From Armatimonadota bacterium (GTDB lineage Bacteria > Armatimonadota > HRBIN16): a stretch of DNA of 64,000 bases. The notes below the pieces were generated by a model that was given only the letters and a program-made list of their open reading frames with translations, searched no databases and was not told the DNA's origin. The stretch's first letter is position 1, and every line of letters starts with the position of its first letter. The stretch lies in the NCBI GenBank assembly GCA_963677485.1, contig OY781964.1, positions 2,496,001 through 2,560,000 on the forward strand, in the 5' to 3' direction. The position numbers and the translations under genes were made by a program. This document shows positions 32,408 through 34,310 of this stretch, in pieces.

Positions 32408-32454
32408 GGGCACAGCATGCCGTGTTTGTTACCGTTTGTAGATACTGTGGCTTT

Positions 32455-32460
32455 TGTCAA
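32455..32460 (-). promoter_or_regulatory. -35 box (TTGACA) of the IS110 circle-junction promoter; the -10 box TACGCT is at 34244-34249
   Basis: Joining the ends gives TTGACA-aaagccacagtatctag (17 nt)-TACGCT pointing into the bridge RNA. Confidence 0.85.
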
Positions 32461-32712
32461 GTCCCCAGGGGCAAATCTGGGGATTTGGACCTGAATATCA
32501 GACACTGGCTCTAGACCACGTAGAACAACGTTAATGTGATGTTTGTGGCATATAGACCAAACCTGGATCCGCGACAGAAACAGGCTCAGATGGCATCAGT
32601 TGGTCCGTAGCACCTCACATGACGCTCGGAGTCGCGAACGGACGTGCGACATCTTCGTGGCTTCGAAAGATATCGTTATGCTTCGATGCGTGCTATCGGC
32701 AGACTGCCGCAG

Positions 32713-34005
32713 CTAGGATACTGGTGTCAGAACCCTCGGTTTGTTGCCCACCCGACTGCGCGATGGCCGGTTTCGGGATGCGGGCCGACCACCGCCGGCA
32801 GGAGTGGGCTCATTGGTGGGATTTCCATCCACGCATCCCCGTCTTGGAACGCTCACGTCCAGCCCAGGATCATTGCCTACACCGGCTATATCATGGGCCG
32901 CTCCGGCACGATCCTGGACATGTCCGTTCGCGTCGGTCAGCGGTTGCTGGTTGGCCGCATTTGAAGCTTGTTCGATGCCGAAGTTTGGATCATATGGCTG
33001 ACGGCTGATTAATACCGACCACATGAGCACCAGCTGCTTGCGCATGATTGCGCACCGGACAACTCGCTTGGACTTCGGTTTCTTATTGGGATTCTTTACC
33101 AAATTCGGATGCTGCAGTTCCTTCACGAAGTCGTGCATGCTCTGGCCAAGCTTTTTCGACTTACCGTTGACCATCTTCACCACAGTGCTCGATCCACAGT
33201 AGAGTAATGTCCGCATATATCGGTCACCCATCTTGGATATGGAGCCGTCGTATGTCTTGCAGCTTCCTGACCGTTGCGGGCAGGGGTTCATTCCGAAATA
33301 GCGCGCGACCGCTTTCGATGTTTCAAATCGTTTAGCATCACCGATTTTCGCAAGGAAATAGCTTGCTGTGACGTCGCTGATACCCGGAATGCTCTTCAGC
33401 AGAGCCATATCTTCGGTCATCTGCGGTGAACTCATCACAAGCTCTTTGATCTGAACATCAAGCTTTTTGATGCCCATGTCATGAAAAGCGATCATCTCGT
33501 CCAGCACTGTGCTCCGCGTAAGCCGACAGCTTTGGCGCTGGGCGATCGCCTGTCTGTGTTGCACCAGCATACGGCGGTCATTGGTGTAACCAATAAGCGC
33601 ATCATAGCATGCTAGACGAGGGACATAGAGTGAGACATTGTGACTTTTCACATAGTCAGCGATTAGCACGCTGTCAGAGCAGTCCGTCTTTTGTTCCCAG
33701 CCTTTGGCTTTGCGGTGATAGAGAACCCGTTTTGGCTCCAGTTGGACAGCATCGTGCTGGTGCTCGTAGAGGTAATCAAGCAGCGGTCGGCTGTAAGGCC
33801 CGGTGGCTTCAGCCGCATACAAGGCGGGAGTTCGGGTAAGCTTCTTCACCCATGACAACAACTCCTTGTATCCGGCCTTGTTGTTCTTGAACTCCTTATG
33901 GTCTATCGGCTTGTGCGATGAACCTAATACAGACGCGTCAAACGTCAATTTCGAGATGTCGATCCCGACATAATGGATGTAGATTTTGTCTTCAACTTCG
34001 TGCAT
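32713..34005 (-). CDS. IS110 family recombinase/transposase
   Basis: DEDD motifs GIDISK, EATG, KTDCSD; SIPGI; catalytic Ser in QRSGS; ISKMG; GGAG RBS before ATG 34005. Confidence 0.97.
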   Translation of the reverse strand: MHEVEDKIYIHYVGIDISKLTFDASVLGSSHKPIDHKEFKNNKAGYKELLSWVKKLTRTPALYAAEATGPYSRPLLDYLYEHQHDAVQLEPKRVLYHRKAKGWEQKTDCSDSVLIADYVKSHNVSLYVPRLACYDALIGYTNDRRMLVQHRQAIAQRQSCRLTRSTVLDEMIAFHDMGIKKLDVQIKELVMSSPQMTEDMALLKSIPGISDVTASYFLAKIGDAKRFETSKAVARYFGMNPCPQRSGSCKTYDGSISKMGDRYMRTLLYCGSSTVVKMVNGKSKKLGQSMHDFVKELQHPNLVKNPNKKPKSKRVVRCAIMRKQLVLMWSVLISRQPYDPNFGIEQASNAANQQPLTDANGHVQDRAGAAHDIAGVGNDPGLDVSVPRRGCVDGNPTNEPTPAGGGRPASRNRPSRSRVGNKPRVLTPVS

Positions 34006-34038
34006 GTGGTAATCTCCAGTTGGTAGTGATTGATGGTG

Positions 34039-34237
34039 CAATCAACCAAATCAGCCTAGCGAACACGGGGTTTTCTCCCAAGATACTGTTCGATATGGGT
34101 TGATTGGGAGAAGGATGCCTATCTACGTCACGGTGTTTTCCACCAGGGGCGGTTCCGGCATCCAATCCTTCTCCTTCACCCCCAGCTAAGGGGTGAGATT
34201 AGCTCCCCGACTGCTTTTGGTGTCCGGGGAGCTCACC
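34039..34237 (-). ncRNA. IS110 bridge RNA
   Basis: Two 5' hairpins; target loop closed by GGAUGCC/GGCAUCC; donor loop closed by CAAUCAACC/GGUUGAUUG; guide segments match target and donor. Confidence 0.88.
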
Positions 34238-34310
34238 ATATATAGCGTACTAGGGGCGGTTCGCGAACCGCCCTTCTTGCGTCGCGCCGCCCCGATTATT
34301 ACCGCAGGGA

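What the first reader, a model, noticed from the sequence alone, without database searches (positions are those of the whole stretch)
32440..34262. IS110 with a fully readable bridge RNA programmed against a host REP
Seen in sequence (minus strand): the target loop carries GAACCGCCCCU (34145-34155), identical over 11 nt to the flank at 34252-34262, and CGUAG (34123-34127), complementary to the REP end CTAC(G). The donor loop carries ACAGUAUCU (34081-34089), identical to the far element end at 32440-32448, and GCUAG (34056-34060), pairing with the junction CTAG(T). The core is CT and the empty site is an intact REP. Established: IS110 recombinases such as IS621 use a two-loop bridge RNA. Inference: this is a divergent, probably functional, reprogrammable RNA-guided recombinase that shares the IS621-like left donor but has a different target specificity.
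Basis: partly seen in the sequence, partly recalled or inferred. Interest (0 to 1): 0.88.

Follow-up and report, generated by a model that had tools for sequence, protein, structure and literature searches.

The report
REP-targeting IS110 with bridge RNA
This is a young, multi-copy insertion sequence of the IS110/IS621 kind whose own small "bridge" RNA spells out both the host repeat it jumps into and its own ends; the mechanism is already known, so it is a new and well-documented member rather than a new kind of system.

Summary
On the minus strand, the 11-mer GAACCGCCCCT (34155-34145) repeats the left flank (34262-34252). ACAGTATCT (34089-34081) repeats the far end (32448-32440). CGTAG and GCTAG sit where stated.

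The element is 1,812 bp (34251-32440). It encodes a 430-aa DEDD/Ser recombinase, 28% identical to IS621, with all five catalytic residues. It has 12 near-identical copies in its 5.22-Mb genome. All 12 lie after ...CCCCT, and 11 of 12 lie before AC. Ten sit in one 22-nt palindromic repeat.

Occupancy falls with mismatches to the guide: 6 of 7 perfect sites are filled, 4 of 31 one-mismatch sites, and 0 of 61 two-mismatch sites.

Two sibling elements carry different target-loop guides that match different repeats. A covariance model built from the three finds the homologous RNA upstream of 45 of 75 distant IS110 genes, including an IS621-family copy.

Verdict: a genuine, recently active bridge-RNA-guided IS110, and a new member of a known kind.

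Caveats: RNA expression and activity are untested, and the window copy carries G210S in a conserved motif.

Two extra features remain unexplained: a conserved ~130-nt hairpin inside the 3' tail of the gene, and REP sites that carry only the first 7 nt of the left end.

The parts
34254..34273 (-). Host REP-like palindrome GGGCGGTTCGCGAACCGCCC. Its 3' arm is the left target.
   Evidence: The strict pattern has 39 copies in the genome. 32 copies are followed by CT: 19 are empty (then AC), 10 are occupied by this IS, 2 are followed by AGTACG without the IS, and 1 is followed by TC.
34252..34262 (-). Left flank GAACCGCCC + core CT (left target plus core), identical to the left target guide.
   Evidence: The flanks of all 12 copies are.
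32440..34251 (-). The insertion sequence, 1,812 bp counting one CT core. The left end starts AGTACGC and the right end finishes ACAGTATCT.
   Evidence: 12 copies, 10 full length and 2 with a 16-bp internal deletion.
34244..34249 (-). TACGCT, a -10-like hexamer at left-end positions +3 to +8. It would lie 17 nt after the right-end TTGACA only in the circular right-end/left-end junction.
   Evidence: Read. The same geometry occurs in IS-B and IS-C (TATGCT) and in the IS621-family copy (TTGCAG-17-TATTAT). The consensus scan finds no promoter in the integrated state.
34177..34234 (-). Two 5' stem-loops of the predicted RNA (34234-34201 and 34195-34177).
   Evidence: Fold. Pairs are kept in IS-B and IS-C through compensatory changes.
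34107..34174 (-). Target-binding loop module: outer stem, internal loop and inner hairpin.
34145..34155 (-). Left target guide GAACCGCCCCU.
   Evidence: Site occupancy falls with mismatches to it.
34121..34127 (-). Right target guide CGUAG (pairs with CTAC(G)), followed by AU in the handshake-guide position.
   Evidence: CGUAG-A is shared by IS-B, IS-C and the IS621-family copy. The handshake-guide concept comes from PMC11208158.
34039..34106 (-). Donor-binding loop module.
   Evidence: Model R1 matches 34039-34176 only, within the window.
34081..34089 (-). Left donor guide ACAGUAUCU.
34054..34060 (-). Right donor guide GCUAG (pairs with CTAG(T) of core plus right donor), followed by GC in the handshake-guide position.
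   Evidence: In IS-B and IS-C the corresponding UACAAG pairs with their CT-TGTA.
32713..34005 (-). Recombinase gene, 430 aa, with its stop at 32713-32715. GGAG lies at 34017-34014.
   Evidence: PF01548 (1.8e-21) and PF02371 (2.7e-21). IS621 structure 8wt6 matches at E = 1.8e-27. D16, E66, D108, D111 and S246-G247 are invariant.
33378..33378 (-). Window-specific base (A here, G in the other 11 copies), giving G210S in the SIPGIG motif.
   Evidence: G is present in all other aligned relatives.
32825..32954 (-). Conserved long imperfect hairpin inside the 3' tail of the gene (codons ~351-394).
   Evidence: z = -4.07, -5.83 and -4.96 in IS-A, IS-B and IS-C. 9 of 51 pairs are compensatory and 93.5% of cells are paired, against 25-37% in slid controls. 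Differences are spread evenly over codon positions.
32455..32460 (-). TTGACA, a -35-like hexamer 15 nt before the right-end terminus.
   Evidence: The position is conserved in IS-B and IS-C and in the IS621-family copy.
32440..32448 (-). Right-end terminus ACAGTAT + core CT (left donor plus core).
32438..32439 (-). Right target AC, completing the REP foot CCCCTAC.
   Evidence: AC in 11 of 12 copies and AT in 1 of 12.

Best explanation
Window 32440-34251 (minus strand) is one copy of a recently active insertion sequence of the IS110 group, the group that includes IS621. Its left end encodes a bridge RNA of about 200 nt (roughly 34237-34039). The RNA has two 5' stem-loops and two internal-loop modules.

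In the first module, GAACCGCCCCU and CGUAG read the two strands of the foot of a host palindromic repeat (ACCGCCC-CT-AC). In the second module, ACAGUAUCU and GCUAG read the joined ends of the excised circle (ACAGTAT-CT-AGTAC).

A tetramer of the 430-aa DEDD/Ser recombinase, holding this RNA, exchanges strands at the shared CT. This inserts the circle between CCCCT and AC.

Shown here by sequence: the anatomy, the guide-site matches, the insertion-site rule in 12 copies, the dependence of occupancy on guide match, covariation of guides with targets in siblings, and conservation of the RNA fold.

Inferred from IS621 biochemistry: the tetramer, the circle, the junction promoter and the order of strand exchange.
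For: - **Protein.** PF01548 and PF02371 are present. IS621 (8wt6) matches at E = 1.8e-27 and ISCro4 (9t56) at 3.6e-25. D16/E66/D108/D111/S246 align with IS621 D11/E60/D102/D105/S241.
- **Copies.** There are 12 copies, and the 246-nt left end is identical in all of them. 10 of 12 reading frames are intact.
- **Insertion sites.** 12 of 12 follow ...CCCCT, 11 of 12 precede AC, and 10 of 12 lie in one 22-nt palindrome.
- **Occupancy by mismatches to the 11-nt guide (sites followed by AC).** 6 of 7 with 0 mismatches, 4 of 31 with 1, 0 of 61 with 2, and 1 of 507 with 3. Fisher p = 4.8e-4 for 0 against 1 mismatch.
- **Siblings.** IS-B (same genome, 46% aa) has GUCGCGCCCCU next to ...CCGCGCCCCT. IS-C (genus-mate genome, 42% aa, 9 copies) has GGGUCAUCCCU next to GGGTCATCCCT. 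Both have UACAAG facing CT-TGTA.
- **RNA fold.** z = -3.45. 5 of 32 pairs are compensatory among the three siblings. A model built from them hits 45 of 75 distant IS110 loci directly upstream of the gene on the gene's strand, including the IS621-family copy at the place of its bridge RNA (26.9 bits, E = 1.9e-4). On those hits 31 of 32 pairs show compensatory change, with 90.6% paired against 57.9% in shuffles (0 of 500) and 34-52% in slid controls.
- **Distant loci.** The left-target-guide loop shares at least 7 nt with its own upstream flank in 13 of 24 cases, against 50 of 552 cross pairs. 12 of those 13 lie 46-79 nt before the model hit.
- **Handshake positions.** These fit the published rule.
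- **RNA libraries.** Contigs of 90-99% similar relatives cover 34034-34276 in 4 metatranscriptome runs from 3 studies.
Against: - No direct evidence shows that the RNA is made in this organism. The RNA-library contigs could be DNA carry-over or read-through, and three of them run on into the flanking repeat rather than starting at the predicted start.
- The consensus scan finds no sigma-70-like promoter in the integrated state. The junction -10 (TACGCT) matches only 3 of 6.
- Rfam 15 gave no bridge-RNA match at E up to 10.
- The window copy has G210S at a position that is G in all relatives examined. Two other copies are frameshifted.
- Two of the 12 insertions lie at sites with 3 and 5 mismatches to the guide, so base pairing alone does not explain every event.
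- Alignment A6 was fitted to the model's structure, which inflates pair counts.
Confidence: 0.9

Rival explanations
1. The family is real, but the window copy is not autonomous. Its recombinase is weakened by G210S, so it moves, if at all, only with recombinase supplied in trans by the nine copies that have the consensus protein. Its RNA and ends are intact.
For: A at 33378 is unique to this copy among the 12. The residue is G in IS-B, IS-C, three distant relatives, five closer relatives and IS621. Trans action is reported for ISPpu10 (section title seen) and considered possible for IS621.
Against: The effect of G210S is untested, and Ser is a small residue. The copy is otherwise identical apart from one right-end base, 32526.
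Confidence: 0.35
2. The element is a dormant relic. The copies reflect one past burst, and neither RNA nor protein is made now.
For: No promoter-like site was found in the integrated state. There is no direct expression evidence for this strain. 2 of 12 copies are frameshifted.
Against: There are at most 8 variable positions over 1.8 kb among the 12 copies, and the left ends are identical. Perfect target sites are nearly saturated at 6 of 7. Near-identical relatives occur in RNA libraries. IS621 is expressed at low level by read-through without its junction promoter.
Confidence: 0.08
3. The loop-flank identities are not guides. They would be a captured REP fragment inside the left end, or chance matches. 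Targeting would then be done by the protein recognising the REP hairpin.
For: 10 of 12 sites are hairpins. A target stem-loop is a known extra determinant for ISPpu10 (abstract). Of the non-REP one-mismatch sites listed, none is occupied.
Against: The internal 11-mer has no palindromic partner. Three siblings and IS621 carry different sequences at the same structural position, each matching its own flank. The match is 11 nt against 0.05 expected occurrences per window. Within the same hairpin family, occupancy follows one base of the guide: ACC sites 6 occupied to 1 empty, ATC sites 3 to 16.
Confidence: 0.02
4. It belongs to the IS1111 group, with the guide RNA (seekRNA) in the long right end rather than the left end.
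For: The non-coding stretch after the stop is 273 nt, and about 550 nt lie after the catalytic core. That region holds a conserved structured element.
Against: The two-loop RNA with all four guides is in the left end. Model R1 matches only the left end. The right-end hairpin has no large internal loops and no matches to the target or the ends beyond chance. The flanking inverted repeat is only about 3 bp (AGC...GCT).
Confidence: 0.02

Closest known systems
IS621 (E. coli; bridge RNA, Durrant et al. 2024, PMC11208160; structures 8wt6-9)
   Same: Same two protein domains and catalytic residues. The left end encodes an RNA with a target loop followed by a donor loop. The core is CT. The target is the foot of a REP ending ...CT-AC: IS621 ATCAGGC-CT-AC against ACCGCCC-CT-AC here. 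The left donor ACAGTAT-CT is identical, the -35 hexamer lies 15 nt from the right-end terminus, and the -10 lies at left-end positions +3 to +8. CGUAG-AU is the same on the 3' side of the target loop.
   Different: Only 27.8% protein identity. The target guide differs. The right donor differs (AGTAC against TGTAT), with a matching change in the right donor guide (GCUAG against CAAG). There are two 5' stem-loops instead of one. The left end is 246 nt against about 192 nt. A roughly 95-aa C-terminal extension overlaps a conserved long hairpin, and the right part is much longer. No experiment exists for this element.
ISCro4 (PDB 9t56)
   Same: The recombinase matches at E = 3.6e-25 over residues 10-277.
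   Different: Only the protein was compared. Its RNA and target were not examined here.
ISPpu10 (P. putida; 'sequence-structure dual match', bioRxiv 10.64898/2026.03.19.712850; abstract only)
   Same: It inserts next to a GC-rich stem-loop in a repeated intergenic sequence. Here the left target is the 3' arm of a 22-nt palindrome in 10 of 12 copies.
   Different: Whether the hairpin is itself recognised here is untested. 2 of 12 insertions lie outside that palindrome family.
ISPpu9 (P. putida; PMC12288879; abstract and section 13)
   Same: An IS110-family element in REP sequences, with an extra RNA module downstream of the recombinase gene.
   Different: There the extra module (ssr9) is a separate unit flanked by its own boxes, and it also occurs alone. 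Here the hairpin lies inside the reading frame and never occurs alone (14 of 14 sense-strand hits lie within IS-A or IS-B).
IS1111 group / seekRNA elements
   Same: DEDD/Ser recombinase and RNA-guided site choice.
   Different: Their RNA lies in the right end and their subterminal inverted repeats are 7-17 bp. Here the RNA is in the left end and the repeat is about 3 bp.

Membership tests
IS110 family (IS110 group) recombinase | N-terminal RuvC-like DEDD domain (PF01548) | tested here: met
   E = 1.8e-21, residues 13-158. D16, E66, D108 and D111 are invariant in 6 sequences and align with the IS621 motif.
IS110 family (IS110 group) recombinase | C-terminal Tnp domain (PF02371) with the conserved Ser-Gly | tested here: met
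   E = 2.7e-21, residues 201-285. S246-G247 are invariant and align with the IS621 ...YESGSS....
IS110 family (IS110 group) recombinase | No long terminal inverted repeats; a short shared core at both junctions and no further duplication | tested here: met
   CT lies at both junctions in 12 of 12 copies, and the flanks are otherwise unrelated.
Bridge-RNA-guided IS110 (IS621-like) | The left end is long and encodes an RNA with a 5' stem-loop and two internal-loop modules | tested here: met
   246-nt left end. Fold. Consensus fold of three siblings. 31 of 32 pairs are compensatory on 40 distinct homologues (the alignment was fitted to the model).
Bridge-RNA-guided IS110 (IS621-like) | The 5' side of loop 1 equals left target plus core; the 3' side is complementary to core plus right target | tested here: met
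   An 11-nt identity plus CGUAG against CTAC(G).
Bridge-RNA-guided IS110 (IS621-like) | The 5' side of loop 2 equals left donor plus core; the 3' side is complementary to core plus right donor | tested here: met
   A 9-nt identity plus GCUAG against CTAG(T), with a G-T wobble at the fifth position.
Bridge-RNA-guided IS110 (IS621-like) | Guides covary with targets and donors among relatives | tested here: met
   IS-A, IS-B, IS-C and the IS621-family copy all follow the rule. 13 of 24 distant loci do so, against 50 of 552 cross pairs.
Bridge-RNA-guided IS110 (IS621-like) | Homology of the RNA to the validated IS621 bridge RNA | tested here: met
   Model R1, built without IS621, matches the IS621-family left end at 543-692 of L125 (26.9 bits, E = 1.9e-4; E-values are rough). 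Rfam itself gave no hit.
Bridge-RNA-guided IS110 (IS621-like) | A promoter reconstituted across the right-end/left-end junction of the circle | tested here: inconclusive
   TTGACA-17 nt-TACGCT would form. The positions are conserved with IS-B, IS-C and IS621, but the -10 matches only 3 of 6. This organism's promoter rules are unknown.
Bridge-RNA-guided IS110 (IS621-like) | The RNA is expressed | tested here: inconclusive
   Contigs from 4 metatranscriptome runs cover 34034-34276. One 176-nt contig (34034-34209) has depth 19.8 against 2 for a coding-region contig of the same run. Contigs cannot show starts or strand, and DNA may be present in the libraries.
Bridge-RNA-guided IS110 (IS621-like) | Recombination needs the RNA and follows reprogrammed guides | not testable with these tools
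   This needs a plasmid or in vitro recombination assay.
REP (repetitive extragenic palindromic) element as target | A short imperfect palindrome, many copies, intergenic | tested here: met
   39 copies of the strict 20-nt pattern. The window copy lies between reading frames 31107-32258 and 34311-35285.
REP (repetitive extragenic palindromic) element as target | Association with a RAYT (Y1 transposase) gene flanked by the repeat | tested here: not met
   There are 3 PF01797 genes in the genome, but no copy of the repeat lies within 800 nt of any of them. 'REP' is therefore used in the descriptive sense only.

The most novel reading that the evidence does not exclude
This clade of bridge recombinase elements (IS-A, IS-B, IS-C and their metagenomic relatives) may carry a third functional nucleic-acid module besides the two guide loops. 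It is a conserved ~130-nt hairpin embedded in the 3' tail of the recombinase gene. It could act, for example, as a processing or stability signal, or as a strand-specific signal of a single-stranded circle. The same clade may also leave a previously undescribed trace in genomes: REP sites that carry only core plus the first 7 nt of the left end (right donor plus 2 nt). These traces are seen for three elements in two genomes. They could be scars of aborted, one-strand bridge recombination.
Probability: 0.25. Interest if true: 0.65.

Novelty: new member of a known kind. Interest (0 to 1): 0.4.

Why it matters
Bridge recombinases are being developed as programmable tools for inserting, inverting and excising DNA. 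Most work rests on IS621, IS622 and a few relatives.

This element is a distant orthologue (28% identity) with a clean natural record. It has twelve copies and a target rule that can be read off the genome. There is a measurable drop in site use with a single guide mismatch. Two sibling elements show how target and right-donor guides change together with their sites in nature. That makes it a reasonable candidate for orthologue screening and a compact teaching case.

It does not change what is known about the mechanism. The hairpin inside the gene's tail and the 7-nt half-site traces are the only parts that might add new biology. Both are still unexplained.

Tried and rejected
- **DNA search of E. 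coli genomes** with the element in distant mode: no match. IS621 was reached instead through a protein search of plasmids.
- **The search for related loci with the single protein:** nothing in genome contigs or metagenome contigs. With alignment A7 the metagenome scan gave only three 26%-identical loci. So no DNA could be obtained for the 61-94% identical relatives seen as proteins.
- **Paper search for the 9-mer ACAGTATCT:** only unrelated primer hits among the 10 papers listed of 401 that hold it. The string is not in the text of PMC11208160.
- **Rfam:** only a chance snoRNA hit at E = 9.9.
- **Promoter scan of the integrated copy:** 0 sites.
- **Right-end fold:** z = -2.14, unremarkable as a whole.
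- **Structure prediction from a 6-sequence alignment:** mean pLDDT 47.2. The tail (334-430) shows no secondary structure, but the model is too weak to call it disordered. No fold search was run.
- **RAYT link of the repeat:** not found.
- **Hairpin against left end, right end and flank:** the one 11-nt complementarity, to the right end, is not conserved in IS-B or IS-C, so it was dropped.
- **Hairpin model R2:** no hit in 69 other loci and no solitary copy in the genome.
- **Solo half-sites as excision footprints:** rejected, because what follows does not begin with AC.
- **Solo half-sites as ends of a non-autonomous derivative:** rejected, because no consistent left-donor-like partner lies within 8 kb downstream; 3 of the 7 sites have only partial matches at differing distances.
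- **Solo half-sites as a natural REP tail:** unlikely, because empty REPs share only AC after CT.
- **RNA-library contigs:** no cover over 32513-33151. This proves nothing either way.
- **Supplementary tables of the papers:** closed. I cannot say whether this element is among the thousands of orthologues listed by Durrant et al.
- **Whether the element is already named in print:** my only literature searches were made, so I make no claim that it is not.
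Full report
**What is there.** Read on the minus strand, window 34251-32440 is a 1,812-bp element.

- It begins AGTACGC directly after ...GGGCGGTTCGCGAACCGCCC-CT.
- It ends ...ACAGTAT-CT directly before AC.
- A 430-aa reading frame runs from 34005 to 32716, with GGAG nine bases upstream.
- That frame carries the two IS110 domains: PF01548 (E = 1.8e-21) and PF02371 (E = 2.7e-21).
- It matches the solved IS621 recombinase (8wt6, E = 1.8e-27) and ISCro4 (9t56, E = 3.6e-25).
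- The residues that the IS621 structure paper names as catalytic are D11, E60, D102, D105 and S241 (passages read). They align with D16, E66, D108, D111 and S246, which are invariant in an alignment with five relatives.

- GAACCGCCCCT occurs twice in the window, in the loop and in the flank, against 0.05 expected.
- ACAGTATCT occurs in the loop and at the far end, plus one unrelated place, against 0.26 expected.
- The fold of the 246-nt left end gives two 5' hairpins and then two stem/internal-loop/hairpin modules. The four strings lie on the two sides of the two internal loops (-88 kcal/mol, z = -3.45).
- This is the arrangement that Durrant et al. describe. [quoted passage not shown] The 3' side reads the top strand. 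The core is included in all four pairings (passages read).

**Other copies.** The genome is one contig of 5.22 Mb and holds 12 copies.

- The left end is identical in all 12.
- Differences are limited to six single bases and a 16-bp deletion shared by two copies.
- All 12 follow ...CCCCT. Eleven precede AC and one precedes AT.
- Ten lie in the same 22-nt palindrome.
- The genome has 32 such palindromes ending in CT: 19 empty and followed by AC, 10 occupied, 2 followed by AGTACG without the element, and 1 followed by TC.

Counting every site that ends in CT-AC, by its mismatches to the 11-nt guide:

| Mismatches to guide | Occupied | Total sites |
|---|---|---|
| 0 | 6 | 7 |
| 1 | 4 | 31 |
| 2 | 0 | 61 |
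| 3 | 1 | 507 |

The twelfth copy sits at a site with five mismatches, or one mismatch plus a one-base bulge. The contrast between 0 and 1 mismatch gives Fisher p = 4.8e-4. Within one hairpin family the choice therefore follows a single base of the guide. A protein-only reading of the hairpin does not explain that.

**Natural reprogramming.**

- **IS-B.** The same genome has a sibling, IS-B, at 46% protein identity. It has two copies, one of them split by an unrelated 2.55-kb element.
- **IS-C.** A genome of the same genus has IS-C, at 42% identity, in nine copies.
- **Target guides.** Their RNAs align with this one. At the position of the left target guide, IS-B has GUCGCGCCCCU and sits after ...CCGCGCCCCT. 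IS-C has GGGUCAUCCCU and sits after GGGTCATCCCT.
- **Donor guides.** Both begin TGTATGC and have UACAAG where this element has GCUAG. This element begins AGTACGC.
- **IS621-family copy.** An E. coli plasmid copy, annotated as IS621 family by the record, shows the same plan. Its flank is ...ATCAGGCCT, its loop AUCGGGCCU, its start TGTATTA and its end ...ACAGTATCT.
- **Left donor.** But CGAACAGUAUCU-like donor loops are common among the distant homologues too, as the literature says of the donor loop.
- **Handshake positions.** The base after GUAG (A) can pair with donor position 7 (T). The base after CUAG (G) can pair with target position 7 (C). The same holds in IS-B. This follows the published handshake rule.

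**Covariance-model test.** Rfam 15 gave no bridge-RNA hit, so I built a model from the two loop modules of IS-A, IS-B and IS-C with a hand-drawn structure.

- It found 47 matches at E up to 1 in 75 distant IS110 loci (25-32% protein identity, many phyla).
- 45 of these, in 45 loci, have E of 0.024 or less and lie directly upstream of the recombinase gene on its strand.
- One of them is the IS621-family copy, at the place of its bridge RNA.
- On these matches, 31 of 32 pairs show compensatory change. 90.6% of cells pair, against 57.9% in shuffles and 34-52% in slid controls. The alignment was fitted to the structure, so these figures lean towards it.
- In 24 loci with distinct target-loop sequences and enough flank, the loop shares 7 nt or more with its own upstream flank in 13. 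Twelve of those lie 46-79 nt before the model hit. The figure for cross pairs is 50 of 552.

**Expression.**

- In the integrated copy the consensus scan finds no promoter.
- Joined as a circle, the right end supplies TTGACA (32460-32455) 17 nt before TACGCT (34249-34244).
- The same spacing holds in IS-B and IS-C (TATGCT) and in the IS621-family copy (TTGCAG ... TATTAT).
- This fits the junction promoter described for IS621, but the -10 here is weak.
- Four metatranscriptome runs from three studies hold contigs of 90-99% similar relatives over 34034-34276. One 176-nt contig lies wholly inside the predicted RNA, at about ten times the depth of a coding-region contig of that run.
- Contigs cannot show starts, strand or level, and DNA may be present in the libraries. 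Three of the contigs run into the flanking repeat, which would fit read-through transcription as reported for genomic IS621 (section 5 read).
- In these relatives the first guide base is U. In one run, position 34152 is U, which would match the commonest variant of the host repeat (AATCGCCCCT).

**Status of the window copy.** It alone has A at 33378. This turns the G of SIPGIG into S. That position is G in the other 11 copies and in every relative aligned. The copy may depend on recombinase from its sisters.

**How divergent and how rare.**

- Identity to the IS621-family protein is 27.8%.
- Among 41 related genomes, 5 have any match at E of 1e-20 or less. Only the genus-mate has a close one.
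- Among 401 genomes of the phylum, 2 have a match at E of 1e-50 or less, and one of these is the window's own genome.
- In one genome per species of bacteria and archaea, the best hit outside the genus is 32%.
- The large protein collection holds relatives at 94, 84, 83, 68 and 61-62% identity. All are 430-433 aa and all lie on contigs of about 2 kb.

- *Extended tail.* The protein has a roughly 95-aa extension beyond the IS621-like core. It is kept in frame in all eight clade members.
- *Hairpin inside the tail.* The DNA of codons 338-394 is the best-conserved stretch between IS-A and IS-B or IS-C (66-70% against 38-59% in the other segments). Its differences are spread evenly over codon positions (17/18/17, against 40/45/68 in the RuvC part). 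It folds into a long hairpin at 32825-32954, with z = -4.07, -5.83 and -4.96 in the three elements, against -2.08 for the opposite strand of IS-A. 9 of 51 pairs are compensatory, and 93.5% of cells pair against 25-37% in slid controls. A model of it finds nothing in 69 other loci. In this genome it finds only the 14 copies of IS-A and IS-B. Its function is unknown.
- *Solo half-sites.* Seven REP sites carry CT plus AGTACG(C/T) with no element behind. There are 5 cases of AGTACGC after CCCCT, against a mean of 0.46 per heptamer. IS-B-type examples exist in the same genome. The genus-mate has six of the IS-C type, against one for a reversed control pattern. What follows is unrelated and does not start with AC, and no consistent partner end lies within 8 kb. 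I could not explain them.

**Verdict.** It is a genuine member of the bridge-RNA-guided IS110 group. It was active recently, and its guides are legible and corroborated by its own copies and by its siblings. The kind is known: the mechanism, REP targeting, guide covariation and breadth across IS110 are all in print. The finding is therefore a new member, with two side observations that may deserve follow-up.

Noticed in passing
window 32825-32954 (minus strand); also L041 about 2519-2651 and L018 about 2528-2660: A conserved long imperfect hairpin lies inside the 3' tail of the recombinase gene. It is conserved at the nucleotide level with no codon-position bias. It is found only in IS-A, IS-B and IS-C. 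Function unknown.
   Followed up: yes
G000 264921(+), 1990839(+), 2010708(+), 3436710(-), 2869712(-), 2851067(-), 2382962(-); G001 loci L129, L131-L134, L140: REP hairpins are followed by CT and exactly the first 6-8 nt of the left end of the local IS110 element, with no element behind. This is seen for three elements in two genomes. These are not simple excision footprints.
   Followed up: partly
window 33378: This copy alone has a base change giving G210S in the conserved SIPGIG motif. A second copy-specific base lies at 32526 in the right end.
   Followed up: partly
G000 1369185-1370991 and 1871159-1872965 (corresponding to window 33552-33567): Two of the 12 copies share a 16-bp deletion that frameshifts the recombinase gene.
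   Followed up: partly
G000 1296596-1298385 and 2667676-2672038: Sibling element IS-B (46% aa) has its own target guide and a different REP family as target. Its second copy is split by a 2.55-kb two-gene element (539 and 262 aa) that has 9 copies in the genome. The family of that element was not tested.
   Followed up: partly
window 32326-32408, with similar motifs near 35316-35737: A short repeat of about 83 nt contains tandem CATCCGTG-like units. Many RNA-library contigs with different flanks lie on it, at depths up to about 250.
   Followed up: no
G000 138550-138987, 1100948-1101385, 3874741-3875178, 2574553-2575029: Four further IS110-family DEDD domains occur in the genome. The bridge-RNA model R1 does not match near them, so they may belong to another subgroup.
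   Followed up: no
window 34152 and 34155 as read in RNA-library contigs: Relatives in four metatranscriptome runs have U for the first guide base. One run also has U at 34152, which would match the commonest variant of the host repeat (AATCGCCCCT).
   Followed up: partly
G000 197329, 2015240, 3003231: CCCCTAGTACGA also occurs in three identical rRNA-operon copies. From recall, this is the 23S sarcin-ricin region. These are chance look-alikes of the half-site and were excluded from the counts.
   Followed up: no
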